DNA of 64,000 bases from Candidatus Berkelbacteria bacterium RIFCSPLOWO2_01_FULL_50_28 (GCA_001774395.1 MEZX01000002.1:481524-545523), one strand, 5' to 3'. Positions 4,222-61,294 are shown, numbered from the stretch's first letter. Numbers and translations are program-made. The notes: generated from the sequence alone by a model not told the origin.

Positions 4222-4678
4222 GGATCCCTCCAATGCATCGCACATTTTCAACGTCGCTAAACTATTCTTGCGAGAGAAATGCTACGAGTTGAAAGTAGTC
4301 TATCCTTGATAAACTAAAAGGTCAATGATTTAGCTCCCTTTCTCTAACGAGATGTGGAGAAAAAGCTTCGGGGGTTCGTCCATAAGCTGGGCTCCAGCGT
4401 CCCGGCTAAGCCACTCGCTTTTTCGAGCTATTGATACTGAAAACCGGCGACTGCCACAGCGATTTCGTCAGAAATCGGAGCATAGCGAGATCCTTCCGGT
4501 GGCGAGGAGCCGGCTTTCTCCACCCGCCTGGGGCGAGCGTGACAGGGTAAGGGGTGTGGGGACCTAGGGACGGTCTTCGCAATTCAAGTCCCTGGTCCCC
4601 ACAAAAAAGCTGCAGGGGCCTGGCCCCTACAATAATACTTCCGACCGAGTCGACAAAAATCATTTCTAGTGAATTAGG

Positions 4679-5991: not shown

Positions 5992-7230
5992 CTACCGTGC
6001 AAAGTGCTGGAAGATCTTCCGCACTTTATCCCAAACCCCCCCTATTTTTCCTACATCAACCCGCCAAGGTGCGTGTGTTTGCTTGTTCTCGTCCACTGCC
6101 CAGAGAACTAGGCCAACGCAGCAAGAGTAAATCGGATTATCGATCTTGTCAAGCAAACCCGAAATTTGAGCCGTTGGATAGCCGATGGTTGCCGGTAAGC
6201 GGAGGCTATCACGAGCCAGTTCGGTTAAGCCCTCAATCTCTGATCCCCCACCTGTAAATATTACTCCAGCGGGTAGTTTCCCCTCTTTTCCCGTCTTGCT
6301 CAGCTCTTCTTTGAGCATCTGGAATATTTCTTCAACGCGAGCTTTGATAATAACGGCCACCTCTTTTCGTGACACTCGTTCGTCCTCGGCTGGGTCGATT
6401 ACGGCCAAATTAATCGTTTCAGAGTCGCGGATTTTATCGGTTAGAACGGTGCCGTATTTCAATTTCAAAGTGTCTGCCACATCTAAATTGGTCCGCAAGC
6501 CGATAGCGATATCGTTGGTGATATGTAACGAGCCGATCGGTAAGCAACCGCAGTAGAGTAGCTCGCCTTCCTCGTAAACGGCGTACGATGTTGTGCCAGC
6601 GCCGATATCAACCACAATAACGCCTGAATCAAGCTGTTTTTTTGTAGTAATGGCTTTGGCGGTGGCCAGCGGCGCGAAAATTAAGCCGTCAATGTTAATG
6701 CCTGCTTGTTCGACGGCTCGAGTTAAATTACGAATTGCCGCGGTGGCGCCGCTAACAACGAGGGCTTGCACTTCAAGACGGATGCCGGTCATACCGGCTG
6801 GATCGCGTATCTCATCTTGGCCGTCAACGATAAAGTGATGAGCAAAAGTGTGAATGAGCTCGCGATTCTGAGGTAGGGCGACGGTTTTGGCCGCATCGAT
6901 AACTCGATCGATGTCGTCTTGTTGGATCTCACCAGAGGCGCGGCCAACAGCGATTACTCCCTGGGCGGGCTGAGAAATTATGTGCGAGCCAGAAATTGAT
7001 AGATAGGCATGAGTAACATTGATGCCCGCCATTCGCTCGGCTTCCTCCAAGGCATGTGATATAGAGCTAACTGTCTCCTCCAGGTCGATTACTATCCCCT
7101 TGCGCATGCCGTGATGGACCACGGAGGCCAGTCCCATTACCGACAGCACACCTTCGTTGATCGTGCCAATTACCACCGCCACCTTGGACGTGCCGATGTC
7201 TATCCCTGTAATAATATTGTCTTGAGTCAT
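5992..7230 (-). CDS. ftsA: Cell division protein FtsA.
   Basis: Actin-like ATPase (MTQDNIITGIDIGTSKVAVVIG...). The start is chosen at the internal Met with an AGGCGGA RBS. The upstream extension of the ORF translates the repeat element. Confidence 0.9.
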   Translation of the reverse strand: MTQDNIITGIDIGTSKVAVVIGTINEGVLSVMGLASVVHHGMRKGIVIDLEETVSSISHALEEAERMAGINVTHAYLSISGSHIISQPAQGVIAVGRASGEIQQDDIDRVIDAAKTVALPQNRELIHTFAHHFIVDGQDEIRDPAGMTGIRLEVQALVVSGATAAIRNLTRAVEQAGINIDGLIFAPLATAKAITTKKQLDSGVIVVDIGAGTTSYAVYEEGELLYCGCLPIGSLHITNDIAIGLRTNLDVADTLKLKYGTVLTDKIRDSETINLAVIDPAEDERVSRKEVAVIIKARVEEIFQMLKEELSKTGKEGKLPAGVIFTGGGSEIEGLTELARDSLRLPATIGYPTAQISGLLDKIDNPIYSCCVGLVLWAVDENKQTHAPWRVDVGKIGGVWDKVRKIFQHFAR

Positions 7231-7248
7231 CAGCAAAATCCGCCTGAT

Positions 7249-7400
7249 TTTGTAATTTCTAATTTCCAATTTCTAATTTTCCCTTCGATAAACTCAGGGC
7301 CCTGAGCGGAGTCGATGGGCATTGAATTTTTAATGACAGAATTTAAAATTAGAGCATTCGGCCTTAACTCAAAATTCAAAATTCTAAATTCAAAATTCCT
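7249..7400. repeat. AT-rich intergenic element A. It has a 4x 7-bp array (TAATTTC/CAATTTC), a central region carrying the perfect palindrome CTCAGGGCCCTGAG, and a second 4x array (AAAATTC).
   Basis: Seen directly in the sequence. The element shares ttgtaattt, a central aatttaaaattaga block and a conserved RBS module with the elements at 31659-31770 and 61069-61178. Confidence 0.7.
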
Positions 7401-7408
7401 TCTGTGTT

Positions 7409-7777
7409 TCATCGGTGGTGATACCCTAATAAGTGAAGTAGCCCGTGTCCGCAGAGCATCTCAATTTCTCTTTCGAGCGGAATTCCCGCTTCTGTAGCTT
7501 GACGCTCGGCCGTATCGGCTGAGACAGCAATTGAACCCAGCAACGGCTCATCGCGGGAAGTGTTGGGGTAGTTTTCAAAACTAAGAACGTCTGTTGGCTG
7601 GTCGATATGGCGAAACTTGGCGTTCAGCTCCTGAATTTGGGCGTCTGTAGTTATCATTACCTCTAAATTCACTCTACCAACCGTATTCAGGCGTAGCAAG
7701 ATTGACGAGAGATGTTTTTTTATATCTTCCTCGTGAAGTCTAACTTTGGTCTGGTTCGACCACGTTAGTTCAAGCAT
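7409..7777 (-). CDS. ybeY: rRNA maturation endoribonuclease YbeY.
   Basis: HGLLHLLGYHH metal-binding motif. The start is MLELTW. Confidence 0.8.
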   Translation of the reverse strand: MLELTWSNQTKVRLHEEDIKKHLSSILLRLNTVGRVNLEVMITTDAQIQELNAKFRHIDQPTDVLSFENYPNTSRDEPLLGSIAVSADTAERQATEAGIPLEREIEMLCGHGLLHLLGYHHR

Positions 7778-16293: not shown

Positions 16294-16404
16294 ATCCTTT
16301 ACATTAGTATATCTTTGACTATTTACCAAAACGCTCTTAGCTGCGTCATATATTATAATATATAAGAGAGCTAGAATATTTGTTTGTTTATTCCTTGGAA
16401 AAAT

Positions 16405-30298: not shown

Positions 30299-30416
30299 GA
30301 TGTATTTTTAACGCAATAGTTGTTTCTTGTGATTGGTGCTGCGAGGCTGAAGTCGTGGCTCATAGTCGGCAGTATAACAGAGCTACCGGTAATTCTTTTG
30401 GTGAGAATTGCTAGTT

Positions 30417-31640
30417 TCACTTCTTGGTCTTTTTTGTTTTGGCGGAGGGTTTTTTCTTGGCGGCAGAGGTTTTTGGCTTGGAGATTTTGGCCTTTGTAAC
30501 TTTCTTGCCGTCGGTTCCGGGCTTCGCGTCGGCAACGGAGTCGTCTTTGGTAGGCGCGGTAACAGTATTGCTATCGGCATCACGCGGGTCTCTTGCCGGT
30601 TTGGATCCGTCGTCCTTGACGATGTCGATCTCCCAACCCGTTAGCTTACTTGCCAAGCGGACGTTTTGACCGTTCTTGCCAATGGCCAGTGATAGCTGAT
30701 CGTCAGGTACTTTAACAGAGGCAACATTTCTTTTCTTCTGAAGGGTAATCTTTTCAATCTTGGCTGGTGAAAGAGCGTTAGCAAGAAGCTGCTCGATAGT
30801 GTCGTTCCAAGAAATAATGTCGATTTTTTCTTCGCCAATCTCGGACAGCACAGCTTGAACACGTGTTCCCCGCTGGCCGACGCACGACCCCACTGGGTCG
30901 AGTCCGGGCATGGTGGATGTTACCGCCATTTTTGTCCGAGTTCCAGCTTCGCGCGAGATAGCCTTGATGGTGACGGTGCCGTTGGCCATCTCTGGAACTT
31001 CAAGATCGAAGAGCTTTTGAATGAAATCGGTGCTGGAGCGAGTTACGAGAACTCGCGGTCCGCGCGGCGTTTCTTCGACTGAGTAGACTAGAACTTTCAG
31101 TCGTTGGCCCGGGAAGTAATTCTGGTTGGGAATTTGGTCGGATGCGATCATCAGGCCGTTTAGTTTACCGATGTTCAAAATAACATTCGGCCCTTCAACC
31201 TGCTGGACATAGCCGTTGATAAGCTGTCCCTGTTTGTCTTTGTATTCGGCGTAAAGGATCTCTTTTTCGGCTTCGCGCAACCGCTGGGATATCACTTGCT
31301 TGGCGGTCTGGGCGGCAATTCGACCGAAGTCGCTGTGCGGCTCTAACTCGATTTTGATCACATCGCCAATCTTGGCGTTCTTCTTGTATTTTTTAGCGTC
31401 CGCGGGAGTCAGCTGGGCTTGAATATTTTCCGGCTCCGCCACGACCTCAAAAGTCTGCCACATCAGGAAACTGCCCGATTCTTCGTCAAGTTTGGCGATG
31501 ATCTGCTCATCGTTTTGTCCGTAATCTTTACGGTAAGCGGCCGCAACGGCGGCTTCGATTGTTTCTAGAATTACTTCCTTAGGAAGCCCTCGTTCATCGG
31601 CTAGTTGATTAATTGCGGCTGCGAATGGGGATATGGCCAT
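30417..31640 (-). CDS. nusA: Transcription termination/antitermination factor NusA with a Lys-rich C-terminal tail.
   Basis: S1/KH architecture. The start is at MAISPF, with a GGAGG RBS. Confidence 0.9.
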   Translation of the reverse strand: MAISPFAAAINQLADERGLPKEVILETIEAAVAAAYRKDYGQNDEQIIAKLDEESGSFLMWQTFEVVAEPENIQAQLTPADAKKYKKNAKIGDVIKIELEPHSDFGRIAAQTAKQVISQRLREAEKEILYAEYKDKQGQLINGYVQQVEGPNVILNIGKLNGLMIASDQIPNQNYFPGQRLKVLVYSVEETPRGPRVLVTRSSTDFIQKLFDLEVPEMANGTVTIKAISREAGTRTKMAVTSTMPGLDPVGSCVGQRGTRVQAVLSEIGEEKIDIISWNDTIEQLLANALSPAKIEKITLQKKRNVASVKVPDDQLSLAIGKNGQNVRLASKLTGWEIDIVKDDGSKPARDPRDADSNTVTAPTKDDSVADAKPGTDGKKVTKAKISKPKTSAAKKKPSAKTKKTKK

Positions 31641-31658
31641 TAGCAAATTCCTCCGGAA

Positions 31659-31770
31659 TTTGTAATTTCCAATTTCCAATTTCCAATTTCCAATAAATTT
31701 TCAATGTCGAAATTTAAAATTAGATAATTCGAGCTTGATTCGAAATTTGAAATTCGATATTTGAAATTGT
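31659..31770. repeat. AT-rich intergenic element B. (AATTTCC)x4, then caataaatttt, then an inverted (GAAATTN)x4 array.
   Basis: Direct read of the sequence. Its translation in the ORF track (NWKLEITNSGGIC) mirrors that of element A. Confidence 0.7.
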
Positions 31771-31860
31771 TGTACATACTTTTATATATTCTCCTTACTT
31801 TTTTAAAAAAGCCAGGATCAAACCTGGTTGTTAATACTTTAACACACATTTTTAGGTAAT

Positions 31861-33673: not shown

Positions 33674-33675
33674 TA

Positions 33676-33800
33676 ATAATCGAATTATCCAATAACCGAA
33701 TAACCAAAAGAATCACTAATCATCTAATAACGAATATTCTACGGCTTTGGTTATTTGGTAATTTTTCGATGATTATGCAATTTGATGATTTGGTAATTAA
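33676..33800. repeat. AT-rich intergenic element E. An AATAACC-type array is followed by an inverted GGTTATT/GGTAATT array.
   Basis: aataatcgaattatccaataaccgaataacc ... ggttatttggtaatttttcgatgattatgcaatttgatgatttggtaatt. Confidence 0.55.
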
Positions 33801-33802
33801 CA

Positions 33803-38926: not shown

Positions 38927-39943
38927 TTAGATTCGGGGGTTATCCGCGCGGGCTTTCCCGTAGACGCCTCGGAGCTGGGGAGGCATCTGCGCCTCAACCT
39001 GAAGGGCGTACCCTTTGATACCTTGATACAGTGCATCGTTATGCGCCTTACCGGCGCAGTGAAGGGCCATTCGCAGATGGCGAAGCTTCTTACGCGGGAT
39101 GTACAGATCACCATCAATGATATGTACCCCGGGAAACCGGAGCGGTACGCCGTTGCGGTTTCCGTTACGAATCGCGACAGTTTTTCGTTCGTTCACCTTA
39201 AAGCCGCTTTTCTCTATGATCCGCCGAATCGCTGAATAAACCGGTCTGTCAACTTCATCATTTTCCCAAGAGAAAACAATGTTATCGACAAACCGTGTCA
39301 CCACGCCACCGACGTTAGAGGCAAGATGCTCCAATCGGGCATCCATCCTTTGGCAGGCGAAGTTGAACAAGGCCGGAGAAGTTGGGGCTCCTTGAGGAAG
39401 CACTAACTTATAGTGAGGAAGTACCTCCTTATAGTCAGAATATATATCCACTAAATCACTGACGATTTCTAGAACAGCCAACTCCATCGGCAAGATATCC
39501 CATGGTTGCTTCCTCTGGCTGCACCATCTTTCGATAACCTCACCATTCGACGTCGTGTAATGGTGGTGGTAAGTCTGGATAAAACTACGGGTGAAGCTGG
39601 CTTGGTTGTAGGCATCTTTCAGGTCGAATCCAACCATGGAGCGAGCTTTACGATGCGGGAAAGCGTTTGACTCGATACCTCGCCCCGCCACACAACCGTG
39701 GGCAATGGGCGAGACGGGAAGACAGCTGAAGTATCTTTTCAGGATGGCTTGTTGGATTGTCACCAGCGGTTCATGGGGGACGTGGATGATTCGTGTTCCA
39801 CCCCCGCTCTTTGGTTGAGCGTAAGAGCCGTAAAACGCAGCGGCTCCGTATTCTAGCACCAAGAACAGCTGGTCAGGAGGCAGGTCGAGACGTCGCGCCA
39901 GCTTGCGGCCGGCGGCGTATTGGCGACCGGTCAAAGTAGGCAT
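38927..39943 (-). CDS. Stand-alone reverse transcriptase of 338 aa, of retron / defence-associated type.
   Basis: RT motifs 1-2 PKSGGGTRIIHVPHEPLVTIQQAIL...SPIAHGCVAGRGIESNA, motif A GFDLKDAY, motif B' LPQGAPTSPALFNFAC, motif C RFVDNIVFS, and KTVAI...LRFPGVHIIDG. There is no maturase/En domain. AAGGAGA RBS. A hairpin followed by a U-run lies at 38878-38915. Confidence 0.8.
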   Translation of the reverse strand: MPTLTGRQYAAGRKLARRLDLPPDQLFLVLEYGAAAFYGSYAQPKSGGGTRIIHVPHEPLVTIQQAILKRYFSCLPVSPIAHGCVAGRGIESNAFPHRKARSMVGFDLKDAYNQASFTRSFIQTYHHHYTTSNGEVIERWCSQRKQPWDILPMELAVLEIVSDLVDIYSDYKEVLPHYKLVLPQGAPTSPALFNFACQRMDARLEHLASNVGGVVTRFVDNIVFSWENDEVDRPVYSAIRRIIEKSGFKVNERKTVAIRNGNRNGVPLRFPGVHIIDGDLYIPRKKLRHLRMALHCAGKAHNDALYQGIKGYALQVEAQMPPQLRGVYGKARADNPRI

Positions 39944-40282: not shown

Positions 40283-41311
40283 ATGGCAGAGGGGCAGATT
40301 GTTGTAGTAGACGAGGGTAAGATGCTGGAACGAATTCTTGAATTCCCCAGCCAGTTGGAGCAGTCCTGGGCCGATTTGTGGACGAAAGAGCTCCCCCTGG
40401 ACCCGACTACGATTCACCAGGTGATAATCTGCGGCATGGGAGGATCTGGCATTGCTGGGGTAATTGCGAAAAGCCTTTTTCAGGATTCGGCCACGATTCC
40501 TATTGCCTTCTGGCATGACTACGGTTTACCGATGTACGCTGGGCCTAACACCCTGGTGCTGGCGGTCAGCGACTCTGGTGATACGGAAGAAACCTTAGAT
40601 TCCTTAAGAAAAGCGTTCGAACGAAAATGTCAGATTGTGGTGATTTCTCGCGGCGGCAAAGACAAAGAAGTGGCCCAGAATAACAACATTCAGTTCGTCG
40701 AGGTAAAAATAGATGCCCCTCCCCGAGCGGCTCTTGGTTACCTTTTGGGCTCGGTTCTCGCCGTCTTGACGAAAGCTAAGCTAATTAATCTTACTGAACA
40801 AGCTTACTTTCTGGCTTTAGGAGAGCTGAAGAATGCCATTTCCCAAAAAACTTTTCCCGCCAAGGCGGAAGAGCTAAGTATTAGTCTGAATAATAAGGTG
40901 CCGCTTATTTTAGCATCTGAGCCGTTAAGCGGTGTCGCCAAGAGGTGGCAAAATCAGTTCAACGAAAACTCGAAAACATTTGCCGTCTTTCAGGAGCTGC
41001 CAGAGGCGTGTCATAACGTGATCCAAGGGTTAGATTTCGCCATTGACGAGAAGATAATCGTGTTGAATCTGGTTTCAAATTACGGCTTTTCACGCAATGT
41101 TGCTCGCGGCAAGATCTTGCAACAACTCTTTTCCACCAAGGAGATTCCGTTTGTACCGCTCACAATACGGTCCGGTTCGGCGCTGGCCGAGCAGTTCTTG
41201 TTCAGCCATTTCGGCGATTTGCTTTCCTACTATCTAGCGGGCGTTAACGGTGTCGATCCAACTCCCGTGGAAGATATCGACAAGTTCAAGGAAGGATTAA
41301 TGAAGTTGTAA
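40283..41311 (+). CDS. pgi: Bifunctional phosphoglucose/phosphomannose isomerase (SIS domain, archaeal type).
   Basis: ICGMGGSGIAG...AVSDSGDTEE. An alternative start is MLERIL at 40320, which has a GAGGG RBS. Confidence 0.8.
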   Translation: MAEGQIVVVDEGKMLERILEFPSQLEQSWADLWTKELPLDPTTIHQVIICGMGGSGIAGVIAKSLFQDSATIPIAFWHDYGLPMYAGPNTLVLAVSDSGDTEETLDSLRKAFERKCQIVVISRGGKDKEVAQNNNIQFVEVKIDAPPRAALGYLLGSVLAVLTKAKLINLTEQAYFLALGELKNAISQKTFPAKAEELSISLNNKVPLILASEPLSGVAKRWQNQFNENSKTFAVFQELPEACHNVIQGLDFAIDEKIIVLNLVSNYGFSRNVARGKILQQLFSTKEIPFVPLTIRSGSALAEQFLFSHFGDLLSYYLAGVNGVDPTPVEDIDKFKEGLMKL

Positions 41312-41416
41312 TGCCAAAGATTTCACGAGTTTGGGGACAGGTGATCCACGATTCCAGGGGCGACGATTTCAAGCAGCTTTGCTGCGAAGAATTCAGTTGG
41401 GTGAGGTTGGACTAAG
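41312..41416 (+). other. Upstream ORF of 34 codons created by a tandem duplication of the first ~54 nt of eno.
   Basis: 41313-41366 repeats 41418-41471 with 3 mismatches. It translates to MPKISRVWGQVIHDSRGDDFKQLCCEEFSWVRLD, and its stop overlaps the eno ATG. Confidence 0.5.
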
Positions 41417-42619
41417 ATGGCAAAGATTTCACGAGTTTGGGGACAGGTGATCCACGACTCTAGGGGCGACGACACCGTCCAGGCTTCGGTTCAAGACGAA
41501 CGAGGTCTTATCGCTTCATCCGCCGTTCCGGCAGGAGCTTCCAAGGGAAAGTTCGAAGCCGCGACAGTTGAACCAGCCGCGGCGGTTAGTAACATCAACG
41601 AAATTATCGGCCATGCGCTGGTAAATCGCGACCCAGCCGATCAAGCAGGCATAGATCGCTTCATGATAGAGCTTGACGGAACGTCAAATAAATCTCACTT
41701 GGGGGCTAACGCGATCTTGGGAGTTTCGATGGCAATAACCCGGTTGGCTGCTCTCGAGCAGCAGCTCCCCCTGTACCGCTATATCGGCAAACTCAACAAT
41801 CGTAACGAATTCCATATTCCCATACCGATGATGAATATGATAAATGGCGGCAAACACGCCAACAATAATTTAGATATTCAAGAATTTATGGTCGTACCAG
41901 ATCGCGTTACTGGTTACCATAACCAGCTCTCCGCCGGAAAGATGATTTTTAGCACCCTTGGCACTATTTTGCGCGAAGACCATCTCTCAGTGGCCAACGG
42001 TGACGAGGGTGGTTACGCTCCAAATTTGGATACCAACGAGATGGCGCTCGATTATTTAATGCGGGCCATTAAACAATCTGGCTACCAACCTTGGGATGAA
42101 GTTTCGCTGGCACTGGACGTCGCCGCAAGTAGCCTACCACCAACTTTCGAAGTTACCCCGAGTCGTTTCTTAGGGATATTACGTGATTTCCCCATCCTTT
42201 CCCTGGAGGACCCGTTTGATGAGGAGGACTGGGAGAACTGGGTGAAGTTCTTGTCACAGATGGAACAATCTAACTCCAGCACAAAAAAACTTATGCTGGT
42301 GGGTGACGACCTGTTCGTGACGAACCAAGAAAGACTGCGTAAAGGCATCGAGATGAAAGCGGCCAACGCTATTCTGGTCAAATTAAATCAAATCGGAACC
42401 GTCACTGAAACTCTTGAGGTTTCCGAAATGGCCAAGGACGCTGGTTTTATGACAATCGTTTCCCATCGTTCAGGCGAAACTCTTGACGATTTCATCGCAG
42501 ATTTTTCTGTTGGAACCGGTGCCCAATTCATTAAAACTGGCGCTCCAAACGATACGCATCAAGAGCGGATGACCAAGTACCGCCGTTTGCTGACGATTGA
42601 GCAAGAGTTAGCAGCGTAA
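41417..42619 (+). CDS. eno: Enolase.
   Basis: MAKISRVWGQVIHDSRGDDTVQA... with a canonical enolase architecture. Confidence 0.9.
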   Translation: MAKISRVWGQVIHDSRGDDTVQASVQDERGLIASSAVPAGASKGKFEAATVEPAAAVSNINEIIGHALVNRDPADQAGIDRFMIELDGTSNKSHLGANAILGVSMAITRLAALEQQLPLYRYIGKLNNRNEFHIPIPMMNMINGGKHANNNLDIQEFMVVPDRVTGYHNQLSAGKMIFSTLGTILREDHLSVANGDEGGYAPNLDTNEMALDYLMRAIKQSGYQPWDEVSLALDVAASSLPPTFEVTPSRFLGILRDFPILSLEDPFDEEDWENWVKFLSQMEQSNSSTKKLMLVGDDLFVTNQERLRKGIEMKAANAILVKLNQIGTVTETLEVSEMAKDAGFMTIVSHRSGETLDDFIADFSVGTGAQFIKTGAPNDTHQERMTKYRRLLTIEQELAA

Positions 42620-56356: not shown

Positions 56357-56537
56357 ACCGTTAGTTAAGCACCAAATAATGAAATTACCAAATCAACGAC
56401 AATTTTAGTAAGTATTCGATGCGAACAGCTCCTAATTTGCTCATATATTATAATATATGAGCAAGTTAGGTTGATGCTTTTGACAGGCAAGAAAACAGAA
56501 GTAGAAGTAATTCCAGCAGTGCTTTATACTAATTTTA

Positions 56538-60516: not shown

Positions 60517-60526
60517 GTTTAAATAG

Positions 60527-60660
60527 TAATCAATGATTAAGCATCAATAACCAAATCTGATTGTTATTCTGGTATTGGTTATTAGGATATTTTTGATTCT
60601 TTCGCAAAGCGAATTCAGAGCGAAGCGACAGATTGGTGATTGGATATAGGTTATTCATAA
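60527..60660. repeat. AT-rich intergenic element F. AATAACC and GGTATTGGTTATT repeats of the E-type.
   Basis: caataaccaaatctgattgttattctggtattggttattagg. Confidence 0.45.
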
Positions 60661-60662
60661 GA

Positions 60663-61055
60663 TTATGTCTTTTCGGCTGACTTCTTACGTCCCGAACCTA
60701 CTGTTACTCTTTTACCCCGTTTTGTCCGGGCATTGGTTTTTGTTCTTTGACCGCGAGCGGGAAGACGTCGTGTGTGACGTGAGCCGCGATAGCTTCCGAT
60801 TTCCTTCAGGCGACGGACGTTTTGGTTTACCTGTTGACGTAAGTCACCTTCAACCGTAAAATCTTTCTCCACAACCTCACGTAGTTTATCTATCTGCTGG
60901 GGTGTTAGTTCACTGAATTTAGGATTGTGCGTCAGCTGTTGGCTCTTCAGTATCTTGGCTGCTAGAGTTGGGCCAATTCCGTAAACATAGCCAAGCCCGA
61001 TAACAAGTCTTTTATTCTCTGGGATGTTGATTCCGGCAATTCTTGGCATCAGCAA
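60663..61055 (-). CDS. rpsM: 30S ribosomal protein S13.
   Basis: MPRIAGINIPENKR... Confidence 0.9.
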   Translation of the reverse strand: MLMPRIAGINIPENKRLVIGLGYVYGIGPTLAAKILKSQQLTHNPKFSELTPQQIDKLREVVEKDFTVEGDLRQQVNQNVRRLKEIGSYRGSRHTRRLPARGQRTKTNARTKRGKRVTVGSGRKKSAEKT

Positions 61056-61068
61056 TTTCCTCCAGAAA

Positions 61069-61178
61069 TTGTAATTTTCAATTTTAAATTTTCAATTTTC
61101 AATAAATTATTAATGTTTGAATTCAAAACTAAATCATTCAACATTGACTCGAAATTTGAAATTCGAAATTTGAAATTC
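61069..61178. repeat. AT-rich intergenic element C. (AATTTTC)x4, then caataaatt, then an inverted (GAAATTY)x4 array.
   Basis: Direct read of the sequence. It is homologous to element B. Confidence 0.7.
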
Positions 61179-61180
61179 AT

Positions 61181-61294
61181 TTAGCCCTGTCTCTGCTTAT
61201 GGCGAGGATTTGAACAGATTACCCTCAATACCCCCTTGCGGCGGATTATTTTGCATTTCAGGCATCTCGGTTTCACTCCAACGTGTACTTTCAT
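61181..61294 (-). CDS. rpmJ: 50S ribosomal protein L36. It is below the ORF-track size cutoff.
   Basis: Manual translation gives [37 protein letters not shown]. Confidence 0.85.

What the first reader, a model, noticed from the sequence alone, without database searches (positions are those of the whole stretch)
31659..31770. Repeated intergenic element built from phased 7-bp arrays, copy B upstream of nusA, with a shared 5'-UTR/RBS module
Structure of copy B. Four perfect AATTTCC units are followed by caataaatttt and aatttaaaattaga, then an inverted array (CGAAATT, TGAAATT, CGATATT, TGAAATT).
Shared RBS module. The 29 nt between the element and the ATG is nearly identical in the copies before ftsA, nusA and rpsM. 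The consensus is AATTACAA-W-TTC-YGGAGGA-WWTTGCT-R-ATG. This suggests a promoter, 5'-UTR and RBS cassette that has been propagated to several essential operons. I do not recognise it as a described element.
Basis: seen in the sequence. Interest (0 to 1): 0.6.

Follow-up and report, generated by a model that had tools for sequence, protein, structure and literature searches.

The report
Translated mini-ORF repeat that bridges genes
The ~130-base repeat in front of ftsA, nusA and rpsM in this groundwater Berkelbacteria genome most likely works as a short translated "bridge" reading frame, not a promoter cassette: it starts at the previous gene's stop codon, carries a hairpin-masked ribosome-binding site, and ends on the next gene's start codon, much like the MIRU repeats of mycobacteria.

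Summary
Three co-oriented copies (7228-7412, 31638-31777, 61047-61180, all on the minus strand) share heptad arrays and a near-identical Shine-Dalgarno (SD) module directly before ftsA, nusA and rpsM.

The "promoter/5'-UTR" reading is not supported. Every copy is spanned by one open reading frame (43-60 codons here). It begins with an ATG at or overlapping the upstream stop codon (ybeY ATGA; rpmJ TAA-ATG) and ends in TGATG/TAATG on the downstream start codon.

- **Frame kept open:** across 20 distinct copies from related groundwater genomes, this frame has 0 stops in 745 codons. The other five frames have 30-76 each.
- **Indels in threes:** all indels in a frame-blind alignment are multiples of three.
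- **Peptide not constrained:** the three codon positions diverge equally.
- **SD hairpin:** 7 of 8 pairs show compensatory changes, and these changes alter the peptide radically.

So the act of translation is conserved, not the peptide. Related Berkelbacteria lack the element at rpmJ|rpsM, so it is an insertion.

Best model: an interspersed, palindromic repeat that relays ribosomes to the next gene. The closest analogues are mycobacterial MIRUs and synthetic "bicistronic designs". I found no description of it for the candidate phyla radiation (CPR). No expression data were available.

The parts
31640..31777 (-). Copy B mini-ORF (45 codons + TAA): MYNNFKYRISNFESSSNYLILNFDIENLLEIGNWKLEITNSGGIC*. 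Its stop TAA (31640-31642) shares its last A with the nusA ATG (31638-31640).
   Evidence: The same ORF was called by independent gene callers on L010 and L011 and is in the protein database as P0003.
31739..31768 (-). Copy B upstream heptad array (AATTTCR x4)
31694..31738 (-). Copy B central segment with the conserved motifs TAATTTTAAAT and CATTGAAAATT
31663..31693 (-). Copy B downstream heptad array (TTGGAAA x4), partly complementary to the upstream array
   Evidence: duplex -18.9 kcal/mol against -7.8 +/- 2.6 for shuffles
31644..31662 (-). Copy B SD-masking hairpin CAAATTCC-GGA-GGAATTTG. The SD GGAGG lies at 31650-31654. Predicted pairing extends over AUUA/UAAU, covering the stop and start codons.
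   Evidence: -8.1 kcal/mol at 37 C, -14.8 at 12 C
31791..31796 (-). AAGGAG 13 nt upstream of the copy B mini-ORF ATG, a possible SD for the mini-ORF. It follows a terminator-like hairpin at 31812-31827.
   Evidence: the functional reading is inference
7230..7412 (-). Copy A mini-ORF (60 codons + TGA). Its ATG (7410-7412) overlaps the ybeY stop TGA (7409-7411) as ATGA. Its stop TGA (7230-7232) overlaps the ftsA ATG (7228-7230). Annotated at NCBI as hypothetical protein A3A71_02195.
7281..7319 (-). 39-nt GC-rich hairpin nested inside copy A. It is a multiple of three, so the frame is kept.
7234..7252 (-). Copy A SD-masking hairpin CAAAATC-AGGCG-GATTTTG
61049..61180 (-). Copy C mini-ORF (43 codons + TGA): MNFKFRISNFESMLNDLVLNSNINNLLKIENLKLKITISGGNC*. 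Its ATG directly follows the rpmJ stop TAA (61181-61183). Its stop TGA overlaps the rpsM ATG (61047-61049).
61053..61071 (-). Copy C SD-masking hairpin CAATTTCT-GGA-GGAAATTG (includes a U.G pair)
61072..61102 (-). Copy C downstream array TTGAAAA TTGAAAA TTTAAAA TTGAAAA. The third unit deviates exactly where TGA would fall in frame.

Best explanation
The element is an interspersed, imperfectly palindromic intergenic repeat of Candidatus Berkelbacteria and close relatives. It is translated as a short 'bridging' cistron.

**Anatomy on the gene strand**
1. An ATG placed on or next to the stop codon of the upstream gene (ATGA, TRATG or TAA-ATG).
2. A heptad array.
3. A central segment.
4. A complementary heptad array.
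5. A hairpin that pairs the SD (GGAGG) of the downstream gene.
6. A stop codon that overlaps the downstream start (TGATG/TAATG, or ATGA).

**Proposed mechanism (steps inferred unless marked shown)**
1. A ribosome finishing the upstream gene, or initiating at the mini-ORF's own ATG when the copy heads an operon, translates the mini-ORF.
2. In doing so it unwinds the array helix and the SD hairpin.
3. [quoted passage not shown]

The product peptide is irrelevant. The frame only has to stay open. This keeps translational coupling, and avoids a long untranslated gap, across a ~130-nt insertion. The masked SD makes downstream translation depend on translation of the bridge.

**Shown:** the repeat, its position, the conserved open frame, the lack of amino-acid constraint, the covarying SD hairpin, and the presence/absence polymorphism.

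**Inferred:** actual translation, the coupling mechanism, mobility, and any role of the heptad periodicity.
For: **1. An open frame in every copy.** All three window copies and all copies found in relatives have one frame open from a boundary ATG to a stop on or just after the main ATG. In 20 distinct copies (745 codons) this frame has 0 stops. The other sense frames have 68 and 53, and the antisense frames 76, 30 and 55. Dinucleotide shuffles are open in that frame in only 3-21% of trials per copy.

**2. Indels in threes.** In a frame-blind MAFFT nucleotide alignment of 10 copies (11-45% divergent), all 5904 pairwise aligned positions are in the same codon phase. Every indel, including the 39-nt insert of copy A, is a multiple of 3.

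**3. No constraint on the peptide.** Divergence is equal at codon positions 1, 2 and 3 (0.296/0.314/0.305). Pfam finds nothing. The peptide itself is therefore not under selection.

**4. Stop avoidance in the arrays.** TTGAAAA units occur 18 times in phase 0, 18 times in phase 1 and 0 times in the phase where TGA would be in frame. There the unit becomes TTTAAAA, CTGTAAA, TTGGAAA and similar.

**5. A covarying SD hairpin.** Over 16 distinct copies, 92% of cells are paired and 7 of 8 pairs show double changes. There are 20 compensated cells against 4.6 in shuffles (0 of 500 shuffles reach the observed value); registers slid by 1-3 columns give 26-62% paired. RNAalifold on full-length copies predicts exactly this helix. 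It appears in the MFE of all three window copies. The compensations turn K/N/I into F/I/N in the peptide, which points to RNA-level selection.

**6. Position between genes.** Independent gene calls on public contigs show the mini-ORF overlapping both neighbours by 1 or 4 nt: rpmE|mini|rpsB, nusG|mini|rplK, rpsB|mini|tsf, gatA|mini|next and rpsH|mini|rplF. Five junctions of one S10 operon also carry it.

**7. Control IGRs.** Of six other intergenic regions between co-oriented genes in the window (71-178 nt), five have no frame open across them.

**8. An insertion, not an ancestral feature.** The rpmJ|rpsM junction in three other Berkelbacteria (S13 69-75% identical) has no element, and their ribosomal-protein genes abut or overlap. 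Assemblies break inside the array.

**9. Precedent.** MIRUs are described as repeats that insert at start codons with an internal ORF coupled to the gene. Short ORFs that 'deliver' ribosomes, and the RNA-unfolding model of coupling, are established concepts (PMC12548453).
Against: - There is no transcript, ribosome-profiling or proteomic evidence. Translation is inferred from sequence evolution only.
- Copies are related by descent, so the stop-codon statistics overstate independence.
- Part of the copy set (P0001-P0016) was found through called ORFs, which is an ascertainment bias. The DNA-pattern and nhmmer hits, found without regard to ORFs, show the same pattern.
- A few copies end 5-14 nt inside the downstream gene instead of on its start (L018 rpsC and rplP, L015). 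One decayed copy (L026 frr|M50) is not fully bridged.
- Some copies (L016_3, L018 rplX, L018 rpsS) have a weaker or different SD hairpin and were left out of alignment A4.
- The 7-nt periodicity and the array complementarity are not explained by the model.
- Copy B follows a terminator-like hairpin, so it needs a promoter that was not located.
Confidence: 0.72

Rival explanations
1. Promoter plus 5'-UTR plus RBS cassette. The arrays act as promoter/UP-like DNA, transcription starts in or at the edge of the element, and the leader is untranslated.
For: - Sigma-70-like hexamers fall in the downstream array of copy C (TTGAAA-16-TACAAT).
- TTGRAA units and TACAAA lie at promoter-like spacing in all three window copies (read from the sequence).
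- Copy B follows a terminator-like hairpin and so needs a promoter nearby.
- Short-form copies have a TAWAAT hexamer 9 nt before the mini-ORF ATG (reading).
Against: - Promoter-like counts are no higher than in shuffles.
- The hexamers are not conserved: arrays read TTCAAAA or TTCGAAA and TTACAA becomes TTCCAA or TTGTTC in other copies.
- Copies abut or overlap the upstream stop codon inside conserved ribosomal-protein operons.
- A start at the predicted site would remove the 5' arm of a hairpin that is supported by covariation.
- It does not explain the conserved open frame or the indels in threes.
Confidence: 0.1
2. A family of genuine small proteins (18-60 aa) whose sequence matters, such as small ribosome- or membrane-associated peptides encoded next to housekeeping genes.
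For: - The ORF is conserved, with start and stop codons in place.
- A profile of the peptides retrieves 16 database proteins.
- Some residues are invariant across copies (N, I, G columns).
Against: - Substitution rates are equal at the three codon positions.
- Hairpin compensations cause radical residue swaps.
- Length varies from 18 to 66 aa with nested inserts.
- Many divergent paralogues occur per genome, in front of unrelated genes.
- There is no Pfam match.
- The invariant residues coincide with conserved nucleotide motifs.
Confidence: 0.07
3. An untranslated structured element. Either a long imperfect RNA hairpin acts as an RNase III processing or stability site, or the DNA arrays bind a protein or shape the DNA. 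On this view the open frame is incidental.
For: - The upstream and downstream arrays are more complementary than composition predicts (z -1.7 to -6.3).
- Subfamilies with different units (AGTTATC, AAATCCG) pair best with their own partner arrays.
- RNase III genes occur in relatives.
- The overall architecture resembles palindromic repeats such as ERIC, Correia and RPE (from my own knowledge).
Against: - RNAalifold does not recover the long helix as a consensus.
- Single-sequence z-scores are modest (-1.7 to -3.2).
- Within the main subfamily, cognate arrays pair no better than non-cognate ones.
- It does not explain zero stops in one frame, indels in threes, or the start/stop overlaps.
- It could co-exist with translation.
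Confidence: 0.08

Closest known systems
MIRU (mycobacterial interspersed repetitive units; Supply et al. 1997, as summarised in PMC12548453, section 11)
   Same: - Short interspersed repeats in intergenic regions of operons.
[quoted passage not shown]
- They are thought to insert at start codons with little effect on expression.
- They can occur in tandem (three tandem short modules in L022).
   Different: - No evident sequence relationship was looked for, and the phylum is different (CPR Berkelbacteria).
- This element is AT-rich and built from 7-nt arrays in inverted arrangement.
- It carries a covarying hairpin that masks the downstream SD.
- Its 3' junction is mostly -1 (TRATG); the review describes -4 spacing for MIRUs.
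Synthetic 'bicistronic design' / short leader cistrons that deliver ribosomes (PMC12548453, section 11, refs 75 and 78)
   Same: A short upstream cistron contains the SD of the gene of interest and stops on its start codon (TAATG). Ribosome helicase activity removes inhibitory structure.
   Different: This element is natural and repeated through the genome. It is often itself coupled to an upstream gene at its 5' end, and it is embedded in a palindromic repeat.
Classical translational coupling by RNA unfolding (e.g. rpmI-rplT, MS2 coat-lysis; PMC12548453, section 8)
   Same: The downstream RBS is held in secondary structure that upstream translation opens. Stop and start codons overlap.
   Different: Here the 'upstream gene' is a dispensable-looking mini-ORF supplied by a repeat, not a functional protein gene.
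Rickettsia palindromic elements (RPE) and other palindromic intergenic repeats / MITEs (ERIC, Correia, BOX, RUP) (my own knowledge; RPE mentioned in PMC10969869)
   Same: - Palindromic repeats of about 100-150 bp, found in many copies.
- Present or absent at orthologous sites.
- RPEs are tolerated because they stay in frame when translated.
   Different: - RPEs insert inside protein genes and extend the host protein.
- ERIC and Correia elements are not known to carry their own start, SD and stop arranged for coupling.
- No transposase, and no clear target-site duplication beyond the ATG, was seen here.

Membership tests
MIRU-like coupled intergenic repeat (functional class) | Interspersed repeat located between co-oriented genes or at start codons | tested here: met
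   3 of 3 window copies, and all copies in relatives, lie directly before a start codon and are co-oriented with it.
MIRU-like coupled intergenic repeat (functional class) | Internal ORF whose ends overlap or abut the stop and start of the flanking genes | tested here: met
   5' junction: ATGA, TRATG or 0-2 nt in most copies. 3' junction: TGATG/TAATG or ATGA in most copies.
MIRU-like coupled intergenic repeat (functional class) | Presence/absence at orthologous sites (mobility or insertion) | tested here: met
   rpmJ|rpsM has the element in the window but not in L029, L030 or L031.
MIRU family proper (mycobacterial sequence family) | Sequence homology to the MIRU consensus; occurrence in Mycobacterium | not tested
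   No MIRU sequence was aligned. The host is Candidatus Berkelbacteria and the element is 66-82% A+T, so homology is not expected.
Translational coupling by RNA unfolding | Downstream SD/start held in a secondary structure | tested here: met
   Covariation-supported hairpin over GGAGG. Predicted -6 to -10 kcal/mol at 37 C.
Translational coupling by RNA unfolding | Downstream translation depends on translation of the upstream ORF | not testable with these tools
   Needs reporter assays or ribosome profiling.
MITE | Terminal inverted repeats | tested here: inconclusive
   The two heptad arrays are mutually complementary beyond composition. However, the element's 3' end is the SD hairpin, not the array, and short forms lack the upstream array.
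MITE | Target-site duplication and a cognate transposase | tested here: inconclusive
   Only ATG/GATGA is shared between the two ends, and the model requires that anyway. No transposase was looked for beyond noting a Y1_Tnp gene in L024.
Sigma-70-type promoter | Conserved -35/-10 hexamers at fixed spacing across copies | tested here: not met
   Hits are no more frequent than in shuffles, and the hexamer positions vary among copies.
Protein-coding gene under purifying selection | Excess of third-position (synonymous) change | tested here: not met
   0.296/0.314/0.305 differences per site at codon positions 1, 2 and 3.
Any Rfam family (riboswitch, leader, sRNA) | Match at the gathering threshold | tested here: not met
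   Only three tRNAs in the window. The best hits on the element have E > 2 and 14-18 bits against cut-offs of 60-90.

The most novel reading that the evidence does not exclude
Berkelbacteria and related CPR genomes host whole families of self-neutralising intergenic repeats. These colonise operons because they bring their own start codon, stop-free frame, masked SD and stop-on-start junction: natural, mobile 'bicistronic design' cassettes. They may have been co-opted to enforce strict ribosome hand-over between ribosomal-protein and cell-division genes. The heptad arrays would then act as a tunable structure, or a ribosome standby platform, that sets coupling efficiency.

Three unrelated sequences seen in passing have a similar ORF architecture, which suggests a general rule and not a one-off:
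- the eno 5' duplication at 41311-41415;
- the GGTTATT arrays;
- the ATGGAGCGGCAC... repeat of L031.
Probability: 0.3. Interest if true: 0.75.

Novelty: new variant of a known kind. Interest (0 to 1): 0.6.

Why it matters
- **Annotation.** About 130 bases of seemingly non-coding repeat inside the most conserved operons of a reduced CPR genome would be translated. That changes how such regions are annotated: many mini-ORFs are not called at all, or are labelled 'hypothetical protein'.
- **A second natural example.** It would be a second, phylogenetically remote case of repeats that survive in operons by preserving translational coupling. So far only MIRUs are cited for this.
- **A natural test set.** It offers dozens of variants of stem, spacing and array. 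These could be used to test the RNA-unfolding and re-initiation models of coupling, which the 2025 review (PMC12548453) still calls unresolved.
- **A reusable signature.** The combination of frame kept, no amino-acid constraint and a covarying SD hairpin could be searched for elsewhere.

Tried and rejected
- **Rfam.** At gathering score it finds only tRNAs. A permissive scan of the element gives only chance-level hits.
- **GTDB genome scan.** The scan with the SD module returned 7 scattered single hits in unrelated phyla, none with arrays. I treated them as chance. The window genome itself is not in that collection.
- **CsrA or Hfq binding to the GGA/ARN-like units.** Considered and dropped, because GGA is not conserved in the arrays (copy C has none).
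- **DNA curvature or iteron-like protein binding from the 7-bp phasing.** Not testable here, and it does not explain the frame.
- **Spo0A/CtsR-like boxes.** Resemblances recalled from memory, not conserved, and implausible in CPR.
- **-1 frameshift heptamers (A AAU UUC).** Not conserved in subfamilies with other array units.
- **Long array-array helix as the main feature.** Not recovered by RNAalifold, although complementarity is above the composition expectation.
- **Target-site duplication.** Only the ATG context is shared between the two ends.
- **Literature.** Searches on Berkelbacteria or CPR combined with intergenic repeats or coupling found nothing relevant.

Full report
**1. Observation**

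The window is about 49% G+C. The genes around the finding lie on the minus strand. On the plus strand, 31664-31694 contains 4.4 perfect AATTTCC units and 31738-31768 the inverted array.

The repeat finder reports three copies of the same element, at 7228-7397, 31638-31768 and 61047-61177.
- The SD-module pattern matches exactly these three places, with 0.00 expected by chance.
- The array pattern gives 19 hits against 0.27 expected.
- The central motif matches the same three places.
- NCBIfam confirms ftsA, nusA and rpsM (uS13) as the genes that start right after the three copies.

**2. Source organism**

The peptide encoded by copy A is identical to NCBI 'hypothetical protein A3A71_02195 [Candidatus Berkelbacteria bacterium RIFCSPLOWO2_01_FULL_50_28]' on a 629-kb contig. 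The NusA protein occurs on Rifle and other groundwater assemblies. So this is a CPR/Patescibacteria genome.

Two Logan contigs end inside the heptad array, as expected for a multi-copy repeat.

**3. More copies**

- A scan of GTDB representative genomes with the SD module gave only 7 scattered, array-less hits. The window genome is not in that collection.
- A scan of JGI/ENA metagenomes gave 9 loci from Rifle, Hainich and other groundwater sites.
- nhmmer on those loci found further, more divergent copies.

Two forms exist.
- **Long form** (as in the window): upstream array, central segment, downstream array, SD hairpin.
- **Short form:** begins ...AACCCGACC-ATG-A(A/C)ATTG and has only the downstream array and the SD hairpin.

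In one 7.5-kb locus (L018, the S10 operon of a 41% G+C relative), copies lie between rplB|rpsS, rpsS|rplV, rplV|rpsC, rpsC|rplP and rplN|rplX. A promoter cassette between every second gene of the S10 operon is implausible. This pointed to the RNA or translation level.

**4. The key finding: a conserved open frame**

The invariant 'GCT-R-ATG' is a stop codon (TAA or TGA) sharing its last A with the start codon. In every copy, the frame closed by that stop, or by the TGA of ATGA, is open across the whole element. It begins with an ATG at the 5' edge.

| Window copy | 5' junction | Length | 3' junction |
|---|---|---|---|
| A | ATG overlaps the ybeY stop (ATGA) | 60 codons | TGATG (ftsA) |
| B | ATG 13 nt after an AAGGAG | 45 codons | TAATG (nusA) |
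| C | ATG directly after the rpmJ stop TAA | 43 codons | TGATG (rpsM) |

Gene callers had independently called the copy B ORF on two public contigs. A profile of eight such peptides retrieved 16 database proteins. Their contigs show the same layout with 1- or 4-nt overlaps at both ends:
- rpmE|mini|rpsB, in two different organisms;
- nusG|mini|rplK;
- rpsB|mini|tsf;
- gatA|mini|next gene;
- rpsH|mini|rplF.

**5. Is the frame more than chance?**

- **Stop counts.** Over 20 distinct copies (745 codons) the frame has 0 stops. The other sense frames have 68 and 53, and the antisense frames 76, 30 and 55.
- **Shuffles.** Dinucleotide shuffles are open in that frame in 3-21% of trials per copy.
- **Indels.** A MAFFT nucleotide alignment made without regard to frame puts all 5904 pairwise aligned positions in the same codon phase. 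Every indel is therefore a multiple of three, including the 39-nt GC-rich insert of copy A. A short copy with two nested ~56-nt GC-rich inserts still ends in TGATG.
- **Array units.** A 7-nt unit is read in a new phase at each repeat. TTGAAAA units occur 18 times in phase 0, 18 times in phase 1 and never in the phase that would give an in-frame TGA. There the unit is changed to TTTAAAA, CTGTAAA, TTGGAAA and similar.
- **Controls.** Of six other intergenic regions between co-oriented genes in the window (71-178 nt), five have no frame open across them.

Copies are related by descent, so these numbers are not independent trials. The frame nevertheless survives indels, nested insertions, replacement of the upstream array by other units (AGTTATC, AAATCCG) and shortening at an orthologous site (44 to 35 codons at rpmE|rpsB).

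**6. What is selected?**

- Divergence is equal at the three codon positions (0.296/0.314/0.305), and Pfam finds nothing. The amino-acid sequence is therefore not under the usual constraint.
- The SD hairpin is. RNAalifold on 12 full-length copies predicts exactly one helix, over the SD, with compensatory changes at all 7 pairs.
- On 16 distinct SD modules, 92% of cells pair and 7 of 8 pairs show double changes. There are 20 compensated cells against 4.6 in shuffles (0 of 500 shuffles reach that). Slid registers give 26-62% paired.
- Stem variants include CAAATTCC/GGAATTTG, CAATTTCC/GGAAATTG, CAAAATCC/GGATTTTG, TTCAAACC/GGTTTGAA, CTCAAG.C/G.CTTGAG, CCAACC/GGTTGG and GAAAATC/GATTTTC.
- These compensations change K/N/I and F/I/N in the peptide, so selection acts on RNA pairing.
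- The helix appears in the MFE of all three window copies. It extends over the stop and start codons (AUUA/URAU). Predicted stability is -6 to -10 kcal/mol at 37 C and -12 to -17 at 12 C.
- Caveat: four copies with weaker or different hairpins (L016_3, L018 rplX, L018 rpsS, L026 gatB) were not included in that alignment.

**7. The arrays**

The upstream and downstream arrays are more complementary than their composition predicts (z -1.7 to -6.3). Subfamilies with different units pair best with their own partner. The long form is therefore an imperfect palindrome.

The long helix is not recovered as a consensus structure, and within the main subfamily cognate arrays pair no better than non-cognate ones. 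I cannot explain why the unit is 7 nt. It may be a trace of how the repeat arises, or it may tune local structure. This remains open.

**8. Insertion, not ancestral leader**

In three other Berkelbacteria (S13 69-75% identical), rpmJ is followed by rpsM within a few bases. In two of them (L029, L030) the ribosomal-protein genes abut or overlap. The third (L031) has several longer gaps that hold other repeats. The window lineage therefore gained copy C at a junction that was tightly spaced. One of those relatives has other family members at different junctions (rpsN|rpsH, rpsH|rplF).

**9. Mechanism**

The best-supported reading is a translated bridge.
1. A ribosome that ends the upstream gene, or starts at the mini-ORF ATG where the copy heads an operon, reads through the arrays.
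2. It melts the SD hairpin.
3. It terminates on the downstream start codon, where the SD sits 7-8 nt upstream.

This matches the two accepted models of translational coupling, RNA unfolding and ribosome re-initiation/scanning. It also matches the idea that a short ORF may exist only to deliver ribosomes (PMC12548453, sections 8, 9 and 11). Keeping the gap translated would also avoid Rho-type polarity (same review, section 3). That last point is inference for a CPR organism.

Which steps are shown and which are inferred is set out under 'best explanation'.

**10. Comparison with what is known**

- **MIRUs** are the closest described thing. [quoted passage not shown] 1997. The present element works like a MIRU but is not a member of that sequence family as far as can be judged: different phylum, AT-rich, heptad-array palindrome, masked SD, mostly -1 junction. 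No alignment to MIRU was made.
- **Synthetic bicistronic designs** share the leader cistron with an embedded SD and a TAATG junction.
- **Rickettsia palindromic elements** share the trait of being tolerated because they stay in frame (my own knowledge).

Literature searches for CPR or Berkelbacteria found no description.

**11. Verdict**

- **Observation:** confirmed.
partly supported. It is an RBS cassette that has spread to essential operons. It is not a promoter plus untranslated leader.
- **Novelty:** new variant of a known kind.
- **Interest:** moderate to high. The evolutionary signature is unusually clean and the case is directly testable, but there are no expression data.

Noticed in passing
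window 41311-41415 (+), between pgi (40283-41311) and eno (41417-42619): The pgi stop TAA overlaps the ATG of a 34-codon ORF. Its first 56 nt are a 95% duplicate of the 5' end of eno (41417-41472), and it stops 1 nt before the eno ATG. This is another 'bridging' ORF, with a sequence unrelated to the heptad element.
   Followed up: partly
window 33674-33802 (-) and 60517-60662 (-): A second kind of phased array (GGTTATT/AATAACC units in inverted arrangement) lies between mreB and a GT4 glycosyltransferase gene, and between rpsM and rpsK. Neither has an SD before the downstream gene. The mreB stop forms TAATG with a 27-codon ORF. A 42-codon ORF runs from 5 nt after the rpsM stop to 13 nt before the rpsK ATG.
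   Followed up: partly
L031 1236-1330, 7453-7629, 10783-10874: A different ~95-nt repeat (ATGGAGCGGCACTTGAAATACATCG...TATTTCAAGTGCC...) sits at rplP|rpmC, secY|LysM and rpsK|rpsD in Berkelbacteria GW2011_GWA2_46_7. It also begins with an ATG at the upstream stop codon and stays open for about 28 codons.
   Followed up: partly
L022 6609-6995: Three short-form modules lie in tandem (about 69-nt period). Each encodes MTLKIRNCKLEITKTGGF* and is followed 12 nt later by the next ATG. This resembles a VNTR.
   Followed up: no
L026 3318-3489; window 7281-7319: GC-rich hairpin-forming inserts are nested inside the AT-rich element: two tandem ~56-nt units in L026 and 39 nt in window copy A. Both leave the mini-ORF in frame. 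Similar inserts appear in peptides P0011 and P0014.
   Followed up: partly
window about 4349-4602 (the non-coding stretch 4252-4678 downstream of ftsZ): A GC-rich non-coding region is 83-90% identical to L026 1112-1263, in two pieces of opposite orientation. No Rfam match even at E<=1. It may be an unrecognised structured RNA or another repeat.
   Followed up: partly
window 38927-39943 (-): A 338-aa reverse transcriptase (Pfam RVT_1, E 8e-19) stands alone. The type (retron, DGR or group II intron) was not determined.
   Followed up: no
window 16333-16374 and 56428-56469: A shared 42-nt stretch centred on the palindrome CATATATTATAATATATG occurs in two intergenic regions. It could be an operator or a promoter.
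   Followed up: no
window 30299-30416 (-), nusA|clpC: This is the only non-element intergenic region with a frame open across it, ending in ATGA on the clpC start. The first ATG gives a 22-codon ORF. The region is not AT-rich, so this may be chance.
   Followed up: no
L009 1-53 and L012 1-54: Logan assemblies of Rifle runs end inside the GGAAATT array just before nusA. The repeat breaks short-read assemblies.
   Followed up: no
L024 7510-7617, 12627-12708, 15019-15088, 6873-7095; L022 5287-5564: Several further families of short-unit arrays in inverted arrangement (CTCAAAA, AAATTAC, AGTCTAAAGT units) fill intergenic regions of related genomes. Palindromic arrays of short units seem to be a general feature of these genomes.
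   Followed up: no
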